From the NCBI GenBank assembly GCA_028715625.1, contig JAQURL010000001.1, positions 36,345 through 100,344 on the forward strand: a stretch of DNA of 64,000 nt. The letters run 5' to 3'. A program made the translations under genes and the position numbers. Shown piece after piece: positions 3,576 through 10,035 of the stretch. How positions within the stretch are numbered: position 1 is the first letter of the stretch; every line of letters begins with the position of its first letter. The notes under the pieces were generated by a model. The model was not told the origin of the DNA, ran no database searches, and saw only the letters and a program-made list of their open reading frames with translations. Origin of the DNA: Candidatus Margulisiibacteriota bacterium. Lineage in GTDB: Bacteria > Margulisbacteria > Riflemargulisbacteria > GWF2-35-9.

Positions 3576-4854
3576 CGGCTGCTTCCCTGATCGAGTCTAA
3601 AAATATTCCGATTGCGGTTTTAATTTCCTCTTTTTTAATGATTAACGGTGGAATCAATCGAATAACTTGGTCATTTTCTCCGCAACTTATTAGCAGTAAT
3701 CCCTTTACTAAAGCAATATTTCGGACACTTTTCACAAACTCAGGGTTCGGTTCCTTTGTCCCCGGCTTAATGAATTCCACGCCTATCATCAGCCCAAAGC
3801 CTCTAACATCGCCTATTTGCTGGTACTTTTTTTGTGCATCTTTTAGTAAAGATTTCATATATTGACCTGTTTCATAAGCATTATCCAGCAGCTTTTCCTT
3901 ATCAATAGTATCAATTGTTGCCAGGCTTGCTGCGCAGGCCACCGGATTTCCGGGGAATGTACCTCCATGTGCTGATGTGGTCCATTGATTCATTAAATCA
4001 GCACGTGCTACACAGGCTCCCAGGGGCAATCCGGAGGCAATAGCTTTAGCCAGCGCGATTACATCAGGCTGAACCTCGTAATGCTCCTTGGCGAACATTT
4101 CACCTGTTCGACCGAATCCTGACTGAATTTCGTCAAATATTAAAATAATATTATGTTCATTAGTGATGTAGCGTAATTCCTGTATAAACTCTACCGGGGC
4201 CGGGATATAGCCACCTTCACCTAAAACCGGTTCAATAATCACAGCTGCAAGGTCATCTTTATTTTTAATAATTTTCTCTTTCATATCAGTTATGCATTGA
4301 AATTTACATTTTCCATAAGTTTGATCATAGGGACATCGATAACAATAAGGAAAATTCGCTGTAATTACGCTATTTATTAGCCAGTCCTCATATCCTTTTT
4401 TATATTTTTCCTTATAAGTAATCGATAATGCTCCTAATGTTCTTCCATGAAACGCCCCGCTAAAAGCCAGCAATTTCTTCTTTTTTGAAACGTACCGTGC
4501 TAACTTAAGGCTTGCCTCAATGGCTTCAGACCCACTCTGAGTAAAAAAAACCGATGCCTCTTTAAATCCGGTTATCTTGACAATTTTTTCAGCCAAATTG
4601 CTATGTGGTGCATAATATGCAATTCCCGCTGCAATATGGATCAACTTTTTTGTCTGCTCACAAATCGCCTTATATATATTCGGATGAACATGACCTGTAT
4701 TAACTACCCCTATACCAGATGTAAAATCAATATACTTCTTGCCATCAACAGTGTATAGGTATAGACCTTCTGCGTGATCCACTTCTAATCTTGTAAAGTG
4801 GCTCAAGACCGGGGATATATATTGATCCGCTTTTTTTAATATTTCGTGGTTCAT
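3568..4854 (-). CDS. Class III pyridoxal-phosphate aminotransferase (acetylornithine/GABA aminotransferase family)
   Basis: DEIQSGFGRTGEMFA PLP-lysine region, GGTFPGNPVACAA, overall AT-III architecture. Confidence 0.75.
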   Translation of the reverse strand: MNHEILKKADQYISPVLSHFTRLEVDHAEGLYLYTVDGKKYIDFTSGIGVVNTGHVHPNIYKAICEQTKKLIHIAAGIAYYAPHSNLAEKIVKITGFKEASVFFTQSGSEAIEASLKLARYVSKKKKLLAFSGAFHGRTLGALSITYKEKYKKGYEDWLINSVITANFPYCYRCPYDQTYGKCKFQCITDMKEKIIKNKDDLAAVIIEPVLGEGGYIPAPVEFIQELRYITNEHNIILIFDEIQSGFGRTGEMFAKEHYEVQPDVIALAKAIASGLPLGACVARADLMNQWTTSAHGGTFPGNPVACAASLATIDTIDKEKLLDNAYETGQYMKSLLKDAQKKYQQIGDVRGFGLMIGVEFIKPGTKEPNPEFVKSVRNIALVKGLLLISCGENDQVIRLIPPLIIKKEEIKTAIGIFLDSIREAAGD

Positions 4855-5692
4855 GTTTCTATTATACCTGAATTTATTTACTAGCTGTACCGATAATTTT
4901 ATAGGAATGTTTAATAAGCTTATTTCTTTTTCTTATAATCTGCGAGAATATTTGGCCGGGTTCAAGGATTTGGAAAAGAACCCCGGAATTATAAATATGT
5001 CTACGTTTGATTATTTACATAACAAGCATCATTTTGATTTAACAAATTTCTTTTCAAACACTTTGAGCACACATGAACTCAGGCAAACTGAATTTACTTT
5101 GGATAATGAAACTTTTGTATTTTATTTTCATCAGCTACCCCATGAAAATTGCATTTTATGGCATATTGGGGCTTATGAAAAAAATCCGGCTTTAGAGGGT
5201 TATGAGTTGGCCAGCCTAGGTTATGCACTATCCGAGAAACAACTTCTTGAACAACAAAATTTATATAAAGCCAGCCATATGGAATGTATAATCATGAATA
5301 ATGTCCCCTCTATACGCAGAATCCCTTGGCACAGGCTTAATTTACCAAAAAATGAAATAATACATCGCTTTAAGGCACTAAATGATTTCGTTCCTTCCTT
5401 AGACCCCATGTACACCCGGTCAAGATACCAGCGTAGAGGTTTCGTTAATTTTTCTTTAAATTTATTTCTGCTAAGGGCCTGGCTGTTTAATTTTGAGTAT
5501 TTATCTTTTCAGGCAGTATCGGTTTATGCCGATACTTTAACCAAATTGAGCGGCTTCAAAACCAATAGCGGAGATACAGGTAATCGTCAATTTTTAAATG
5601 CCGGTCTGCTTAGAGCAGAACAAGAACCACCAGATAAATGGCATGCTCTTTCTCAACTTGAGCTCGACAAAAATTATATGCAATCATTTTGA
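4853..5692 (+). CDS. Hypothetical protein (start uncertain; internal Met at about 4997 possible)
   Basis: Long ORF with no recognisable motif; sits divergent from the aminotransferase and upstream of glnN. Confidence 0.3.
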   Translation: MFLLYLNLFTSCTDNFIGMFNKLISFSYNLREYLAGFKDLEKNPGIINMSTFDYLHNKHHFDLTNFFSNTLSTHELRQTEFTLDNETFVFYFHQLPHENCILWHIGAYEKNPALEGYELASLGYALSEKQLLEQQNLYKASHMECIIMNNVPSIRRIPWHRLNLPKNEIIHRFKALNDFVPSLDPMYTRSRYQRRGFVNFSLNLFLLRAWLFNFEYLSFQAVSVYADTLTKLSGFKTNSGDTGNRQFLNAGLLRAEQEPPDKWHALSQLELDKNYMQSF

Positions 5693-5760: not shown

Positions 5761-7869
5761 ATGTCAAAAACAATGGACATCTTCGGCGAATTGGTTTTCA
5801 ACAAAGAAGTAATGAAAAATCGTTTAAGCAAGAACGCTTATACTCAACTGATTGATATTATAACCAAAGGTGAATCACTGGAAAAAGAAATAGCCGGAGA
5901 AATTGCACACAGCATTAAAGAATGGGCTATTGAAAACGGTGCAACTCATTATACCCACTGGTTTCAACCGCTCCGGGAAGGTACAGCTGAAAAACATTAT
6001 GCTTTTCTCAGCTACAACGAAGAGGAAGAAATTATCGAACGTTTATCCGCAGAACAGCTTATTCAATCCGAACCTGATGCGTCGTCTTTTCCTTCCGGAG
6101 GTATAAGGTCTACCTTTGAGGCCAGGGGTTATACAGCGTGGGACCCCACATCCCCTGTTTTCCTTATGGAAAGCAAAAACACAAAAACTCTTGTAATTCC
6201 ATCTGTATTTCTGTCCTGGACAGGGGAGGTGCTTGATCAAAAAACCGCCTTGTTAAGATCAAAAAAAGCCCTGAACAATGTATCCATGAAAATCCAAAAA
6301 TTGCTTGGTAACCGCAACGCCAAGAGAACACAGGTATGGCTTGGTATAGAACAGGAATATTTCTTGATACCTAAAGAACATTATACAAATAGACTCGATA
6401 TAAAAATTTGCGGTAAAACATTGTTTGGCACCAAACCGGCCAGAGGTCAGCAATTAAAAGAACATTATTTCGGCGCTATCAAAGAAAATATTTTAAATTT
6501 TATGGAAGATCTGGACACCGAATTATATCGTCGCGGTATACCGGCCAAAACAAGACACAATGAAGTTTCTCCAAACCAGTTTGAAATAGCTCCTTTGTAT
6601 GAAGAAATGAACCTGGCTGTTGACCATAATTTGCAAACAATGTCTATTATGAAAGATGTTGCCGAAAAACATGGCTTGGTAGTTTTGCTCCACGAAAAAC
6701 CTTTTAAGGGTGTTAATGGTTCCGGAAAACATTTGAACTGGTCTATTGGCGACAATACTGGTGTAAATTATCTGGAACCATCCGCATCTCCGTTACGCAA
6801 TGTTACGCTGTTAATGACGGTCGTTTCTATAATGTTGGGAGTTAAAAAATACGGCGCTCTATTAAGAGCTACAGTTTCCGATGCTGGCAACGATGACCGT
6901 CTTGGTGGAAGTGAAGCTCCACCTAATATTATGTCAGTATATTTAGGCGAATATCTGTCATCTCTTCTTAATGAGATTGAAAACATAAACAAGATGACTG
7001 AAAAAAAGATGGCTGAAATCAGCCTGGGGATCAGACAACTTCCCTCCATAACCAAAGATATATCAGATAGGAACAGAACTTCACCTATTGCTTTTACCGG
7101 CAACAAATTTGAGTTTAGAGCTGTAGGTTCTTCTCAAAATTGCTCGGAAGCAGCAACTGTATTGAACCTGATTGTTACATATGGATACGAAATTATTCAC
7201 GATCGCCTGGATAAAATGAAAGGTGATCCCAGAACAAATGCCCTGCTAATTATTAAAGACCTGTTAAAAGAAACAAAGGGAATCCATTTCGAAGGCAACA
7301 GTTACACGGAAGATTGGCACAAAGAAGCACTGAAAAGAGGTCTTCCTAACATTAAAGATACACCATCAGCGCTAAAACATTTAACTGAACATGATAATAT
7401 TAAACTTTTCACAGACTTCCATATATTGTCTGAAAGAGAAATAAAAGCCAGGCAATATATAAAATATCAAAAATACATAGACACAAAACAAATTGAGTTG
7501 AAAATAGCTTGTGAGATAGCACAAAAGCAAATCCAACCTGTCCTGATAAAACAAATGGTATTATTAGGAAAAAGCGCAGAAACACTCAAGGAAAACGATA
7601 TTAATTCAAAAACAATAATAGAAGAACTGAAGAATCTTGAAGAAATCTATAGTAACATTCATAAAACAACCTCACAAATACAAGAGCAAATCAATAAAAA
7701 TAATTCAATAAATAGTAATGACAGCCTGGAAAAATTAGCTTCCAGCTATGCACAAATTTCAGATAAAAGTTTATATGAATTAAGGTCATTAATAGATTCC
7801 GCTGAAAATTTGATAGCTAAAGAGCTCTGGCCCCTTATCGGATATCAGGATTTATTTACTTCACTATAA
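5761..7869 (+). CDS. glnN: Glutamine synthetase type III
   Basis: About 700 aa, N-terminus MSKTMDIFGELVFNKEVMKNRL... typical of GSIII, AGGAG RBS upstream. Confidence 0.8.
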   Translation: MSKTMDIFGELVFNKEVMKNRLSKNAYTQLIDIITKGESLEKEIAGEIAHSIKEWAIENGATHYTHWFQPLREGTAEKHYAFLSYNEEEEIIERLSAEQLIQSEPDASSFPSGGIRSTFEARGYTAWDPTSPVFLMESKNTKTLVIPSVFLSWTGEVLDQKTALLRSKKALNNVSMKIQKLLGNRNAKRTQVWLGIEQEYFLIPKEHYTNRLDIKICGKTLFGTKPARGQQLKEHYFGAIKENILNFMEDLDTELYRRGIPAKTRHNEVSPNQFEIAPLYEEMNLAVDHNLQTMSIMKDVAEKHGLVVLLHEKPFKGVNGSGKHLNWSIGDNTGVNYLEPSASPLRNVTLLMTVVSIMLGVKKYGALLRATVSDAGNDDRLGGSEAPPNIMSVYLGEYLSSLLNEIENINKMTEKKMAEISLGIRQLPSITKDISDRNRTSPIAFTGNKFEFRAVGSSQNCSEAATVLNLIVTYGYEIIHDRLDKMKGDPRTNALLIIKDLLKETKGIHFEGNSYTEDWHKEALKRGLPNIKDTPSALKHLTEHDNIKLFTDFHILSEREIKARQYIKYQKYIDTKQIELKIACEIAQKQIQPVLIKQMVLLGKSAETLKENDINSKTIIEELKNLEEIYSNIHKTTSQIQEQINKNNSINSNDSLEKLASSYAQISDKSLYELRSLIDSAENLIAKELWPLIGYQDLFTSL

Positions 7870-8007: not shown

Positions 8008-9945
8008 TTAGTTCTGAGGACTACCTATACCTAGTCTTTGCTCTGTTGCTTCTAATATTGCAGTAATCATTTCTGGATAATTTATGCCTGCGAATTTCGC
8101 CATTCTGGCCAAATGGCCATCCCAGCACCAACCGGGATTCGGATTTACTTCCAGCAATTTCGGGTTACCCTGTGCATCTAAACGCCAGTCGAAACGACTA
8201 TAATCTCTAACTTCCAATCGTTCATATAATTTTAAGCAACTTTCAATAACCATTCTTTCTGTATCAGCAGGTAAATCAGCCGGGATTGAAGTAATACTAA
8301 AATAAGGTGACTCCGGTTGCCACTTTGCTTCATAGCCACATATTTTTGGCAAGTCAGGAGGCAATGAAGAATAGTCCTCCTCAATAATCGGTAGCACTTT
8401 ATATGATTCCGGCGGGTTTCCTATTATCCCTACGCTTATATCCTTACCGGTAAGAAATTCTTCAACCAGAATCGGCTTTTCATAGCCGAATTTTTCCCTG
8501 ATGCCCGATATCGCATAAGTTAGTTCTTCTATATTATTGGCAACACTTTTTTGCGTTATCCCAAAACTTGAGTCACCTGAATTGGGTTTAACTATAACAG
8601 GAAATGGGAATGATAAATCAAAGGTAGAATCTTCTGGTTTTACAAAAAAAGCTTCGGAAACGGGTATGCCCATTTCTTTAGCGATACCTCTCACCAGCGA
8701 TTTATCATAACAATAAGCGAGCGCCTGAGGCCCTGAACCTGTATAAGGCACTCCAAGTACTTCCAAAATTGAAGGAACATGCAGTTCCTTTCGCGGATCG
8801 TTGTTAAACCCTTCATCACAAAGATTAAACACATAATCAATTTTAATTTTTTGTTTTATTTTATTTAAATCATTAATTAACAAATCATGGTTGCTTATAT
8901 AAGTAAATTGATATCCGTTTAATTTTTTTAAAGCGTCTTTCAATTGATCAATAGTATAAAAATCATCATCATCAAATATACTCGATGGTTTTAAGTTGTC
9001 AGGCTTGGATGGATCACCAAGAATAACAACCACATTTTTTTCTATCTGTTTTTTCTTGGTTATAGGAGTCCATTCTTTGCGTACTATACATTTCATTATC
9101 AGTCTTTGCTGCATCATACCCAAGTCTTGGTTTCTAGCAGAATTGGTAGCAATTTCACCCATTACGGAAATATCTGAGAAACCTGCCTTTTTTAATAATT
9201 CCGTAGATTTTTCCTGATTGTAAAGACGAACAGCGTAAAATTGATCAGCAATAACGCCTTTATCAATATGTGAAACCAGCTCTCTGGATATCAGTTTGTT
9301 TGTATCCAGGGATAATGACCTTTCCCTGCAAACAAAATATTTTTTATCTATCCATTCCCAAGACCTGGCTTGAAAATTCTGTTTTAAAAATTCACCGTTG
9401 GCTACATCTATCAATACACGTCCCCACGGTTTCAATACTCGGTGAACTTCCTTAAGAACTCTTAAATCATCTTCCAGAGTTTCAAAATACCCGAAACTAT
9501 TCCCTAAAATCATTACTACGTCAAAGCTGTCCGATAAATAGGGAAGTTTGCGGGCATCGCCTTCGCGAAACTTGATATCAAGTCCTTCTTTTTTGCTTCT
9601 CTCTTTTGCTTTTTGAATTAAATAATGTGATCTGTCGATCCCTTTGATATTCTTGTAGCCGCGTCGCGCTATTTCCATGGAATGCCGTCCCTGGCCGCAA
9701 CAAAGGTCCAAAATGGAATCACTTGGGTTTAATTTTAATATATCAATAAACTGATCAACTTCCTGTTGGGTTATACTGTTATCTTCAACTATATCTGCAT
9801 CGGTCTTCAGATAATTGAAGTTAAATATACTTTTCCACCATTCAGGGGACACATGTTCTTCGAGGTTTATTACGGGGCCCAATACTTTGTTTTTTGTTTT
9901 ACTTTTTTTTATCGGCGGCTGTTTTGAGCTTTCTTTCACTTTCAA
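8008..9945 (-). CDS. Fusion protein: N-terminal class I SAM-dependent methyltransferase plus C-terminal D-Ala-D-Ala-ligase-like ATP-grasp domain (TTG start)
   Basis: MTase motif I ILDLCCGQGRH, motif II FDVVMILGNSF, motif III LKPWGRVLIDV. Ddl-like motifs VPSILEVLGVPYTGSGPQALAYCYDKSLVRG, PVIVKPNSGDSSFGI, ILVEEFLTGKDISVGIIGN, RFDWRLDAQGNPKLLEVNPNPG. AGGAG RBS upstream of the TTG. Confidence 0.7.
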   Translation of the reverse strand: MKVKESSKQPPIKKSKTKNKVLGPVINLEEHVSPEWWKSIFNFNYLKTDADIVEDNSITQQEVDQFIDILKLNPSDSILDLCCGQGRHSMEIARRGYKNIKGIDRSHYLIQKAKERSKKEGLDIKFREGDARKLPYLSDSFDVVMILGNSFGYFETLEDDLRVLKEVHRVLKPWGRVLIDVANGEFLKQNFQARSWEWIDKKYFVCRERSLSLDTNKLISRELVSHIDKGVIADQFYAVRLYNQEKSTELLKKAGFSDISVMGEIATNSARNQDLGMMQQRLIMKCIVRKEWTPITKKKQIEKNVVVILGDPSKPDNLKPSSIFDDDDFYTIDQLKDALKKLNGYQFTYISNHDLLINDLNKIKQKIKIDYVFNLCDEGFNNDPRKELHVPSILEVLGVPYTGSGPQALAYCYDKSLVRGIAKEMGIPVSEAFFVKPEDSTFDLSFPFPVIVKPNSGDSSFGITQKSVANNIEELTYAISGIREKFGYEKPILVEEFLTGKDISVGIIGNPPESYKVLPIIEEDYSSLPPDLPKICGYEAKWQPESPYFSITSIPADLPADTERMVIESCLKLYERLEVRDYSRFDWRLDAQGNPKLLEVNPNPGWCWDGHLARMAKFAGINYPEMITAILEATEQRLGIGSPQN

Positions 9946-9996
9946 TATTTACCCTTCTCTCCTTCTTTGTGTAGCCGATCCTACTTCTGTTAGGTA

Positions 9997-10035
9997 AAAC
10001 TCAGAAGATGTGTAAAATACCCATCTTCTGAGTTT
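9997..10035 (-). terminator. Rho-independent terminator hairpin downstream of the lipoprotein gene
   Basis: 11-14 bp perfect inverted repeat aaactcagaagatg...catcttctgagttt, followed on the minus strand by TTTTA. Confidence 0.5.

What the first reader, a model, noticed from the sequence alone, without database searches (positions are those of the whole stretch)
8008..9945. Single-polypeptide fusion of a SAM-methyltransferase and a D-Ala-D-Ala-ligase-like ATP-grasp domain
The 645-aa protein carries a complete class I MTase motif set (DLCCGQGRH / FDVVMILGNSF / LKPWGRVLIDV). It is followed by all hallmark blocks of a Ddl-family ATP-grasp ligase (VPYTGSGPQALAYCYDKSLV, VIVKPNSGDSSFGI, LVEEFLTGKDISVGIIGN, LEVNPNPG). 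I do not recognise this domain pairing as a described architecture. A ligase+methylase fusion suggests one enzyme that makes and N- or O-methylates a small amide or dipeptide-like product (cell-wall precursor variant, osmolyte or signalling molecule). It sits next to a repeat lipoprotein and a BT1 transporter, which could be substrate or export related.
Basis: partly seen in the sequence, partly recalled or inferred. Interest (0 to 1): 0.6.

Follow-up and report, generated by a model that had tools for sequence, protein, structure and literature searches.

The report
Uncharacterised methyltransferase–Ddl-like ligase fusion enzyme
The gene is real and encodes one protein joining an amine-type methyltransferase to a ligase built like the cell-wall enzyme Ddl but lacking Ddl's D-alanine-binding residues; the fusion is widespread in bacteria, archaea and some fungi, and no function could be found for it.

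Summary
A 645-aa ORF lies at 8008-9945, but on the minus strand. Its N-terminal half is an intact class I SAM methyltransferase. Its C-terminal half is a complete three-domain Ddl-fold ATP-grasp ligase.

It is not a D-Ala-D-Ala ligase. The ATP and catalytic residues are kept, but the D-Ala-specific residues are replaced, and it scores far below the curated Ddl cut-offs.

The methyltransferase half is closest to NmbA, the bacillithiol N-methyltransferase, and to other enzymes that methylate amines.

The fusion is common, not rare. It occurs in at least 231 GTDB species across many phyla, in archaea and in zoosporic fungi. Sources give it only generic names, and I found no paper on it. The two halves also occur as adjacent or overlapping separate genes, which supports a functional link.

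The neighbours in this window (repeat lipoprotein, BT1 transporter) are not conserved elsewhere. The only neighbour that recurs across phyla is the Mg2+/Co2+ channel CorA.

Best reading (about 0.45): a self-contained two-step enzyme that ligates an amino-acid-type carboxylate to an amine and N-methylates the free amino group, giving a small N-methylated dipeptide-like metabolite. A protein- or peptide-modifying role is the main rival. The substrates are unknown.

The parts
8008..9945 (-). Complete CDS of the methyltransferase/ATP-grasp fusion protein. 645 aa from the TTG at 9945; an alternative GTG start at 9939 would give the 643-aa NCBI version; the stop codon is at 8008-8010.
   Evidence: ORF list; translation; 100% identical database protein P0001 from a Candidatus Margulisbacteria MAG.
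9880..9945 (-). N-terminal basic tail (aa 1-22). Its sequence is poorly conserved but it is always Lys/Arg-rich, and it is predicted to be disordered.
   Evidence: Across 81 homologues the tail averages K+R 28% and D+E 8%. pLDDT is below 50 for aa 1-24. Mean column conservation is 0.52.
9736..9879 (-). Conserved segment before the methyltransferase core (aa 23-70), motif LGPVxNLEEHVxPEWWxxIFxxxYLKTDxDVV. It probably forms the N-terminal part of the substrate cap, as in NmbA.
   Evidence: Invariant residues W36 W37 F41 Y45 T48 D49 D51 D55. The segment is kept in the second subclade, the fungal proteins and the stand-alone methyltransferases. The NmbA cap uses N-terminal strands (PMC12719100). 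The cap role is inferred.
9397..9735 (-). Class I SAM-methyltransferase Rossmann core (aa 71-183). It contains motif I ILDLCCGQGRH, acidic D104 after strand beta2, GDARK, and LGNSFGYFE.
   Evidence: Pfam Methyltransf_25/31/11 E 1e-20 to 1e-22. Invariant D80 G84 G86 D104 D130 N149 S150 G152 Y153 F154. Y153/F154 align with NmbA Y134/F135, which that paper assigns to adenine stabilisation.
9079..9396 (-). Methyltransferase cap and C-terminal strands (aa 184-289): one helix plus four beta-strands, with family motifs SWEWID, FVCRERSLS, LISRE, FYAxRLY and RNQDLGMMxxR.
9043..9078 (-). Inter-domain linker (aa 290-301).
   Evidence: Lowest conservation in the protein (0.64). pLDDT is about 63 while both flanks exceed 90, and pTM is only 0.60. 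In split versions the gene boundary falls here (L087, L093).
8746..9042 (-). Ligase N-terminal domain, Ddl-like (aa 302-400). LGDPxKPDxLKP replaces Ddl's GGxSxExxVS motif; an acidic F-D-D-D-D patch and NLCDEG replace Ddl's HGxxGEDG.
   Evidence: Family alignment. The fold matches Ddl over about 290 residues. D311 is invariant and is the likely counterpart of DdlB E15; that assignment is inferred.
8026..8745 (-). Ligase central and C-terminal domains (aa 401-640) with the ATP-grasp catalytic set and family-specific pocket residues: CYDK, VKPNxGDSSFGI, an omega-loop with GYEAKW, RDYxRFDWR, and NPNPGWCWDGH.
   Evidence: Pfam Dala_Dala_lig_C. The family-HMM alignment to E. coli DdlB shows K415=K97, K453=K144, S459/S460=S150/S151, E495=E180, K541=K215, R584=R255, D586=D257, E599=E270, N601=N272, G605=G276, and the changes W542 for Y216, G610 for S281, H611 for L282.
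9996..10033 (-). Context only: a 14-bp hairpin followed by TTTT, between the small lipoprotein ORF and the fusion gene. It looks like a terminator for the lipoprotein ORF.
   Evidence: RNA fold of the intergenic stretch, -27.8 kcal/mol. No promoter-like site was found between it and the start codon. The best promoter-like site is at 10443-10470 (-), upstream of the lipoprotein ORF.

Best explanation
The gene encodes a self-contained bifunctional biosynthetic enzyme acting on small molecules. The C-terminal Ddl-fold ATP-grasp domain would use ATP/Mg2+ to turn the carboxylate of an amino-acid-type substrate into an acyl phosphate, then condense it with an amine to form an amide (dipeptide-like) bond. 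The substrates are not D-Ala + D-Ala. The N-terminal NmbA/GSMT-like class I methyltransferase would then use SAM to methylate an amino nitrogen of the same molecule, most plausibly the free alpha-amino group of the newly made aminoacyl-amide. That is what NmbA does to the cysteinyl amine of bacillithiol after the ligase step of that pathway. The product would be a small N-methylated dipeptide-like metabolite made from common precursors, which would explain why the gene needs no conserved partner genes. SHOWN: both folds, both intact catalytic motif sets, loss of the D-Ala-specific residues, and conservation of the pairing whether fused or split. INFERRED: the small-molecule nature of the substrates, N- rather than O-, C- or S-methylation, the order of the two steps, and any physiological role. 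Linkage to CorA in several phyla hints at cation or stress homeostasis, but I cannot explain it.
Against: No substrate or product is identified, and nothing here distinguishes a small-molecule acceptor from a macromolecular one by direct test. Subclade 1 is unusually conserved across phyla (mean 69% identity), which is more typical of enzymes that handle conserved macromolecules. That set consists of the top hits, however, and the whole family spans 33-100% identity. The basic, disordered N-terminal tail is unusual for a metabolic enzyme. Halves of the protein are found fused to protein- or peptide-oriented domains: SET, LRR and prolyl oligopeptidase. Several of the closest methyltransferase relatives act on peptides: CypM and the daptide methyltransferase. 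AF2 does not predict a fixed inter-domain arrangement (pTM 0.60), so there is no evidence of channelling between the two sites.
Confidence: 0.45

Rival explanations
1. It is a post-translational (or peptide) modification enzyme. The ligase half attaches an amino acid to an amine or carboxylate of a conserved protein, for example a ribosomal or translation component, and the methyltransferase half methylates an amino group of that protein or of the added residue.
For: Cross-phylum conservation is high (mean 69%), and archaeal copies are nested among bacterial ones. The N-terminal tail is basic and disordered. Relatives of the methyltransferase half are fused to SET domains (P0259, P0176). The ligase half is fused to LRR repeats in Lokiarchaeia and to a prolyl oligopeptidase in Monosiga. 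Close methyltransferase relatives include the peptide N-terminal methyltransferase CypM and the daptide methyltransferase. A RimK-family gene lies directly downstream (gap 5 and -3 nt) in L008 and L047. In Phycisphaerae the gene sits between trmD and rplS.
Confidence: 0.2
2. It makes a low-molecular-weight thiol or similar redox metabolite: the ligase couples cysteine (or a Cys-containing unit) to an amine and the NmbA-like domain N-methylates the cysteinyl amine. This would be a one-protein analogue of BshC + NmbA, and is a specific sub-case of the best explanation.
For: NmbA is clearly the best solved sequence relative of the methyltransferase half, cap included. From my own knowledge, GshF shows that a Ddl-like ATP-grasp can be fused into thiol biosynthesis. 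Many carriers are anaerobes; that their major thiols are unknown is an assumption from my own knowledge, not something checked here.
Against: Identity to NmbA is modest (26% over 189 structurally aligned residues). GshF does not appear among the listed PDB sequence hits. According to PMC12719100, the bacillithiol pathway is absent from archaea and eukaryotes, which do carry this fusion. No residue evidence points to cysteine.
Confidence: 0.08
3. It is a peptidoglycan-related ligase, either a variant Ddl making an alternative dipeptide or a stem-peptide ligase, with the methyltransferase modifying the precursor.
For: Stand-alone ligases carrying the full family signature occupy the ddl slot after mraY..murD-ftsW-murG in two CPR-like contigs, with no canonical Ddl motif within 6 kb on either side. 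The fold and catalytic machinery are Ddl-like.
Against: The counterparts of E15, Y216, S281 and L282 are replaced. Scores are about half the NCBIfam Ddl cut-offs. The fused form occurs in Methanosarcinales, Altiarchaeota, Lokiarchaeia and fungi, which lack peptidoglycan. A canonical Ddl (GGRSGEHEVS) lies next to the fusion in Atribacterota locus L065. An N-methylated dipeptide amine could not be joined by MurF (inference).
Confidence: 0.07
4. The two domains are active but functionally unrelated, or one merely regulates the other, so no single ligated-and-methylated product exists.
For: AF2 gives no confident inter-domain packing (pTM 0.60, linker pLDDT about 63). Ligase-only genes with no adjacent methyltransferase exist in CPR and DPANN-like contigs.
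Against: The pairing is kept across two subclades, three domains of life and two independent split-gene arrangements with overlapping or abutting genes. Both active-site motif sets are under equally strong constraint.
Confidence: 0.07

Closest known systems
D-alanine--D-alanine ligase / VanA family (Ddl, EC 6.3.2.4)
   Different: 23-27% identity. NCBIfam Ddl models score 127-133 bits against cut-offs of about 243-246. The GGxSxExxVS (E15) motif is replaced by LGDPxKPD, with Y216->W, S281->G and L282->H/K. It is fused to a methyltransferase, occurs in organisms without peptidoglycan, and coexists with a canonical Ddl.
NmbA, bacillithiol N-methyltransferase (PDB 9RI2; PMC12719100)
   Same: Best solved sequence relative of the N-terminal half: 90.7 bits, aa 72-266 against NmbA 55-243, spanning the Rossmann core and the cap. 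Shared SFGYFET, ER[ST]LS and R[IL]Y motifs. The cap has one helix and four strands.
   Different: About 26% identity over structurally aligned residues. Here it is fused to a ligase. The paper finds no bacillithiol pathway in archaea or eukaryotes, both of which carry this fusion. No bsh genes were seen near the gene (the whole genome was not available).
Ngg, the bifunctional N-acetylglutaminylglutamine synthetase (GNAT + ATP-grasp; NCBIfam TIGR03103). Comparison from my own knowledge.
   Same: One polypeptide combines an N-capping domain with an ATP-grasp dipeptide ligase to make an N-capped dipeptide from common amino acids.
   Different: The cap is an acetyl group from a GNAT domain, not a methyl group from a class I methyltransferase. 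From my own knowledge its ATP-grasp is RimK/cyanophycin-like rather than Ddl-like; this was not tested here. Ngg works with the amidotransferase AsnO, and no such partner was seen here.
GshF (GshA fused to a Ddl-like ATP-grasp glutathione synthetase). Comparison from my own knowledge.
   Same: A Ddl-like ATP-grasp domain fused C-terminally to the enzyme of an adjacent step in making a small peptide metabolite.
   Different: The partner domain is a glutamate-cysteine ligase, not a methyltransferase. GshF structures are not among the listed PDB sequence hits of this protein.
Peptide and natural-product N-methyltransferases with a four-beta-strand cap (CypM, daptide methyltransferase, DesVI, CcbJ, GSMT/SDMT)
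   Different: All scores are far below the curated cut-offs (for example 59.6 against 350 for GlySarMtaseBact). The family-specific cap motifs (SWEWID, FVCRERSLS, RNQDLGMM) are not features of those enzymes.

Membership tests
D-alanine--D-alanine ligase (Ddl/Van) | Three-domain ATP-grasp fold of the Ddl type | tested here: met
D-alanine--D-alanine ligase (Ddl/Van) | ATP/Mg2+-binding and acyl-phosphate catalytic residues (DdlB K97, K144, E180, K215, R255, D257, E270, N272) | tested here: met
   All are aligned to conserved residues K415, K453, E495, K541, R584, D586, E599 and N601.
D-alanine--D-alanine ligase (Ddl/Van) | D-Ala1 site: E15 within the N-terminal GGxSxExxVS motif | tested here: not met
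   The motif is absent and LGDPxKPDxLKP stands in its place. The HMM alignment to DdlB starts only at DdlB residue 73.
D-alanine--D-alanine ligase (Ddl/Van) | D-Ala2 site: Y216 (or Van-type His/Phe) in the omega-loop and S281/L282 binding the carboxylate | tested here: not met
   W542, G610 and H611 (K611 in subclade 2 and fungi).
D-alanine--D-alanine ligase (Ddl/Van) | Score at or above the curated NCBIfam Ddl/Van model cut-offs | tested here: not met
   Best scores are 132.8 bits against a cut-off of 243 (NF002378) and 126.6 against 245.65 (TIGR01205).
D-alanine--D-alanine ligase (Ddl/Van) | Sole or housekeeping Ddl of a peptidoglycan-containing organism | tested here: inconclusive
   The window holds no other Ddl-like gene, but only 64 kb is available. 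A canonical Ddl is adjacent to the fusion in L065. Archaea and fungi carry the fusion. Stand-alone relatives sit in the ddl slot in two CPR-like contigs.
Class I SAM-dependent methyltransferase | Rossmann core with motif I (D/E)xGxGxG, an acidic residue after beta2, and motifs III-VI | tested here: met
   Pfam Methyltransf_25/31/11 above cut-offs. Invariant D80, G84, G86, D104, D130, Y153 and F154. AF2 pLDDT exceeds 90 over the core.
NmbA (bacillithiol N-methyltransferase) | Orthology criteria of PMC12719100: E below 1e-20, identity above 25%, coverage above 80%, similar length | tested here: not met
   The E-value (8e-25) and identity pass, but the match covers NmbA residues 55-243 of 266 (71%) and the protein is 645 aa.
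NmbA (bacillithiol N-methyltransferase) | Co-occurrence with BshA, BshB and BshC | not testable with these tools
   Only a 64-kb window is available. Indirectly against: the paper reports no bacillithiol pathway in archaea or eukaryotes, yet both carry the fusion.
NmbA (bacillithiol N-methyltransferase) | Methylates an amine nitrogen of an aminoacyl-amide substrate | not testable with these tools
   Inferred only, from the predominance of N-methyltransferases among sequence and structural neighbours.
Ngg-type bifunctional N-capping / ATP-grasp dipeptide synthetase | GNAT acetyltransferase domain fused to the ATP-grasp ligase, with an AsnO partner | tested here: not met
   No GNAT domain is present. 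TIGR03103 is not among the listed NCBIfam hits. No amidotransferase neighbour recurs. The resemblance is in logic only.
DsyGD (bifunctional DMSP synthesis enzyme) | N-terminal S-methyltransferase plus a C-terminal DsyD decarboxylase (PF04115, ureidoglycolate-lyase-like) | tested here: not met
   The C-terminal half here is PF07478 ATP-grasp, not PF04115 (PMC11306096).
Anti-phage defence system components (PADLOC) | Full-length match to a defence protein model | tested here: not met
   Only a methyltransferase-core match to mad2, aa 59-190.

The most novel reading that the evidence does not exclude
The fusion makes a so-far undescribed N-methylated dipeptide-like metabolite, or installs an undescribed aminoacyl-plus-methyl modification on a conserved protein. 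Either would be shared by many uncultured anaerobic bacterial phyla, several archaeal lineages and zoosporic fungi, and would be tied to Mg2+/cation homeostasis, as the repeated linkage to CorA suggests.
Probability: 0.25. Interest if true: 0.8.

Novelty: new variant of a known kind. Interest (0 to 1): 0.5.

Why it matters
The family is large, strongly constrained and found in all three domains of life, yet it has only generic names and no reported function. It is especially common in uncultured subsurface and sediment lineages: Atribacterota, Aminicenantes, Sedimentisphaerales, WOR-3, Aerophobetes and Lokiarchaeia. Because one gene appears to carry the whole activity, the function can be tested directly by expressing that gene and looking for a new metabolite or a modified protein. 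Identifying the product would annotate thousands of genes. It could reveal a new widespread metabolite or modification and explain the link to the CorA magnesium channel. It would also stop these genes being mislabelled as 'D-alanine--D-alanine ligase', a name that wrongly implies peptidoglycan synthesis, including in archaeal genomes.

Tried and rejected
1. DsyGD of DMSP synthesis. I recalled it as a methyltransferase + ATP-grasp enzyme, but the paper shows its C-terminal domain is PF04115, ureidoglycolate-lyase-like. Rejected.
2. A functional link to the adjacent AP-repeat lipoprotein and BT1 transporter. Neither recurs in about 170 related loci.
3. A conserved operon partner. Systematic neighbour clustering in 85 loci and in 80 further metagenome loci of the second subclade found only lineage-level synteny: ffh-rpsP-trmD in Phycisphaerae, aldo-keto reductase in Atribacterota, and RluD, RsmB..guaA, APC permease and Orn/DAP decarboxylase in single lineages at 74-96% pairwise identity. 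CorA is the one cross-phylum exception.
4. A diphthamide link. The ORF after the stand-alone ligase in two DPANN-like loci matches only positions 1-58 of 302 in the Diphthamide_syn profile, and in one lineage only.
5. The SET-domain lead. The SET-methyltransferase fusion P0259 is a singleton with no ligase nearby.
6. A glycine-betaine-type role, tested through the tandem double methyltransferase P0240. It is instead closest to the daptide methyltransferase model.
7. A defence-system role. Only a generic methyltransferase-core hit.
8. Carriage on mobile elements. No plasmid or phage record holds the fused gene.
9. RiPP biosynthesis. No recurrent small precursor ORF was seen next to the gene.
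10. A channel between the two active sites. This could not be examined, because the tools return no coordinates. The model gives no confident inter-domain geometry (pTM 0.53 and 0.60).
11. Five literature searches found no paper on this fusion.
Full report
OBSERVATION

The coordinates 8008..9945 hold an ORF of 645 codons, but on the minus strand, starting at a TTG at 9945. The plus strand is full of stop codons. A GGAGAGAAGGG Shine-Dalgarno-like stretch precedes the start. The identical NCBI protein, from a Candidatus Margulisbacteria MAG, is 643 aa, which fits a start at the GTG two codons downstream.

Pfam scores both halves well above threshold: Methyltransf_25/31/11 at aa 74-190 (E 1e-20 to 1e-22) and Dala_Dala_lig_C at aa 423-632 (E 7e-28).

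The stated neighbours are real. A 62-aa ORF at 10058-10246 (-) has a signal-peptide/lipobox-like start and an Ala/Pro repeat (my reading; no Pfam hit). The ORF at 10564-12162 (+) is a BT1-family transporter.

THE LIGASE HALF

A family HMM aligned to E. coli DdlB shows every ATP-binding or catalytic residue conserved: K97, K144, S150/S151, E180, K215, R255, D257, E270, N272 and G276. The residues that define D-Ala recognition are replaced: Y216 by Trp, S281 by Gly, L282 by His or Lys. The N-terminal GGxSxExxVS (E15) motif is replaced by LGDPxKPDxLKP.

NCBIfam Ddl and Van models score 127-133 bits against cut-offs of about 243-246 or more. The protein is therefore an active-looking carboxylate-amine ligase of the Ddl clade, but not a D-Ala-D-Ala ligase.

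The family signatures are NLCDEG, CYDK, GYE(A/S)KWxPxSPYW, RDYARFD(W/F)R and NPNPGWCWDG(H/K). They persist down to about 40% identity, including in the fungal members.

THE METHYLTRANSFERASE HALF

The SAM-binding motifs are intact and invariant. The best solved relative by sequence is 9RI2: 90.7 bits over aa 72-266, covering the Rossmann core and the cap. All other methyltransferases score 59 bits or less.

9RI2 is NmbA, which methylates the cysteinyl amino nitrogen of bacillithiol (PMC12719100). The shared SFGYFET motif contains the Tyr/Phe pair that paper assigns to adenine stabilisation. The model's cap has one helix and four strands, like the four-strand caps discussed there.

DISTRIBUTION

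The fusion is common.
- The word-indexed search returned 5391 hits. The best 120 all carry both domains, at 67-74% identity, and come from Thermotoga, Synergistetes, Syntrophobacter, WOR-3, Aerophobetes, Phycisphaerae, Anaerolineae, Actinomycetota and a Methanosarcinales archaeon.
- 231 stretches in GTDB species representatives encode it.
- The exhaustive search of 50%-identity representatives found 854 clusters at E<=1e-30.
- A second fused subclade, 46-50% identical, includes the cultured halophilic methylotroph Methylohalomonas lacus.
- Fused members occur in the zoosporic fungi Gonapodya, Paraphysoderma and Blastocladiella.
- Names are only 'methyltransferase domain-containing protein', 'D-alanine--D-alanine ligase' or 'hypothetical'.
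- Five full-text literature searches found nothing on the fusion.
- No plasmid or phage record carries it.

Within subclade 1, identity between phyla averages 69% (range 60-81), against 74-86% within phyla. Archaeal copies are most similar to bacterial ones. This indicates strong constraint plus horizontal spread. These loci were the top hits, however, so the figure is selected; the whole family spans 33-100% identity.

IS THE PAIRING FUNCTIONAL?

Unfused forms exist: ligases of about 340 aa and methyltransferases of about 280-330 aa carrying the same signatures. In two independent contigs the two genes are adjacent in the fusion order, overlapping by 29 nt in L087 and abutting in L093. Both halves are equally conserved.

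AF2 gives no confident relative orientation: pTM 0.60, with linker pLDDT about 63.

GENOMIC CONTEXT

In Thermotoga, Methanosarcinales and Phycisphaerales the gene stands among unrelated genes. Clustering all flanking ORFs of 85 loci showed only lineage synteny, such as ffh-rpsP-trmD-[gene] in Phycisphaerae/Sedimentisphaerales.

Pfam scanning of 137 flanking genes from 44 non-Planctomycete loci gave one cross-phylum signal. CorA lies next to the gene in Thermotoga, Atribacter (two loci), Clostridia, Aminicenantes (two loci) and Spirochaetes. It is upstream in some and downstream in others. These CorAs pass the NCBIfam CorA equivalog cut-off. CorA appears again in 2 of 80 loci of the second subclade. 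Since genomes usually carry only one to a few corA genes (general knowledge), this linkage is very unlikely to be chance. I cannot explain it.

Other neighbours:
- A UPF0316/DUF2179 membrane protein recurs in two phyla.
- A RimK-family ligase lies directly downstream in L008 and L047.
- A canonical Ddl lies next to the fusion in an Atribacterota locus.
- The window itself has no CorA and no other Ddl-like gene.
- The lipoprotein and BT1 genes of the window do not recur anywhere.

LEADS POINTING AWAY FROM A SMALL-MOLECULE ROLE

- The N-terminal 22-25 residues are disordered and basic (K+R 28%).
- The methyltransferase domain occurs fused to SET domains in two rare proteins.
- The ligase domain occurs fused to LRR repeats in a Lokiarchaeon and to a prolyl oligopeptidase in Monosiga.
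- Stand-alone ligases occupy the ddl slot of the cell-wall gene cluster in two CPR-like contigs, with no canonical Ddl motif nearby.
- In two DPANN-like contigs a stand-alone ligase is followed by a fragment-like Diphthamide_syn ORF.

LEADS POINTING TOWARDS A SMALL-MOLECULE ROLE

- The ligase belongs to the Ddl clade and retains the omega-loop lid.
- The invariant D311 is the likely E15 counterpart for an alpha-ammonium group (inferred).
- Conserved Arg and Lys/His residues line both presumed pockets. The pocket location is inferred from the alignment.
- No substrate gene is linked.
- Sister-clade ligases (29-33% identity) lie in diamino-acid operons: DABA transaminase-SbnA-SbnB-ligase on a Thioflavicoccus plasmid, and ligase-hypothetical-MFS on a Sinorhizobium plasmid.

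MOST LIKELY MECHANISM (confidence about 0.45)

The ligase half activates the carboxylate of an amino-acid-type substrate as an acyl phosphate and joins it to an amine. The NmbA-like half then N-methylates the free amino group of the product with SAM. This repeats, in one polypeptide, the ligase-then-NmbA order of N-methyl-bacillithiol synthesis, and it resembles the logic of Ngg and GshF (my own knowledge).

Shown: the folds, the intact catalytic sets, the loss of D-Ala specificity, and the conservation of the pairing. Inferred: the substrate class, the atom methylated, the order of the steps, and the physiological role.

Rivals:
- Protein or peptide modification, 0.2.
- A thiol-type product, 0.08 (a sub-case of the best explanation).
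- A peptidoglycan role, 0.07.
- Uncoupled domains, 0.07.

VERDICT

This is a new variant of known enzyme kinds: a widespread, uncharacterised family whose function should be testable by expressing a single gene. Interest 0.5.

Noticed in passing
L086:6001-7017 and L088:6001-7008 (CPR-like contigs): Stand-alone ligases with the full family signature sit directly after mraY..murD-ftsW-murG, in the slot usually held by ddl. They are followed by unknown ORFs and an 807-aa double ATP-grasp protein (ATP-grasp_4 + LAL_C2 + Dala_Dala_lig_C). No canonical GGxSxE[RH]xVS Ddl motif lies within 6 kb on either side.
   Followed up: partly
L001, L029, L041, L056, L078, L080, L082 (subclade 1); L146, L158 (subclade 2): A bona fide CorA Mg2+/Co2+ channel gene lies next to the fusion gene in five phyla, upstream in some and downstream in others, and again in two loci of the second subclade. 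The CorAs are 46-66% identical to each other across phyla. The reason is unexplained.
   Followed up: partly
L089:7077-7403 and L090:2066-2374: In two DPANN-like archaeal contigs the stand-alone ligase is followed about 30 nt later by a 102-108-aa ORF. That ORF matches only the first 58-67 positions of the 302-position Pfam Diphthamide_syn (Dph2) profile.
   Followed up: partly
L095:3689-9170 (Thioflavicoccus mobilis plasmid pTHIMO01): A sister-clade Ddl-like ligase (29% identical) sits in an apparent operon with a diaminobutyrate transaminase, SbnA and an SbnB-like cyclodeaminase. A KamA-family radical SAM gene lies alongside on the opposite strand. This looks like an uncharacterised diamino-acid peptide pathway.
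   Followed up: no
window 10058-10246 (-): A 62-aa ORF with a lipoprotein-type signal (..LMVSVMGCGKK) followed by an Ala/Pro/Glu/Gln-rich repeat (APAPAAAPAEQAAPAAAPADQAPAAPAEAPAAPAPAK). It has no Pfam hit. A strong promoter-like site (TTGACA-16-TAAAAT) lies at 10443-10470, and a 14-bp hairpin plus T-run follows the ORF.
   Followed up: partly
window 5761-7869 (+): A type III glutamine synthetase (GSIII_N, Gln-synt_C, Gln-synt_C-ter) converges on the fusion gene, with 138 nt between the two stop codons. No GS neighbour was seen in related loci.
   Followed up: partly
window 12519-13820 (-) and 4853-5692 (+): Two sizeable ORFs (433 aa and 279 aa) near the fusion gene have no Pfam match at E<=0.001.
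   Followed up: no
L054:5267-7444: A 725-aa protein fuses a Ddl-like ligase (158 bits to the Ddl subfamily model, below its cut-off) to an M20/glutamate-carboxypeptidase-like hydrolase. It lies 1.8 kb downstream of the fusion gene in a Gemmatimonadales MAG.
   Followed up: no
P0253 (Monosiga brevicollis XP_001745658.1), P0145 (Lokiarchaeia HMF33764.1), P0259/P0176, P0240: The two halves occur in other architectures: ligase + prolyl oligopeptidase in a choanoflagellate, LRR repeats + ligase in an Asgard archaeon, methyltransferase + SET domain in either order, and a tandem double methyltransferase scoring just under the daptide methyltransferase cut-off (170.7 against 175 bits).
   Followed up: partly
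L008:2042-2941 and L047:7962-8858: A RimK-family alpha-L-glutamate ligase gene lies immediately downstream of the fusion gene (gap 5 nt, or a 3-nt overlap) in a Sumerlaeota MAG and an unclassified MAG. This suggests an operon of two amino-acid ligases plus the methyltransferase.
   Followed up: partly
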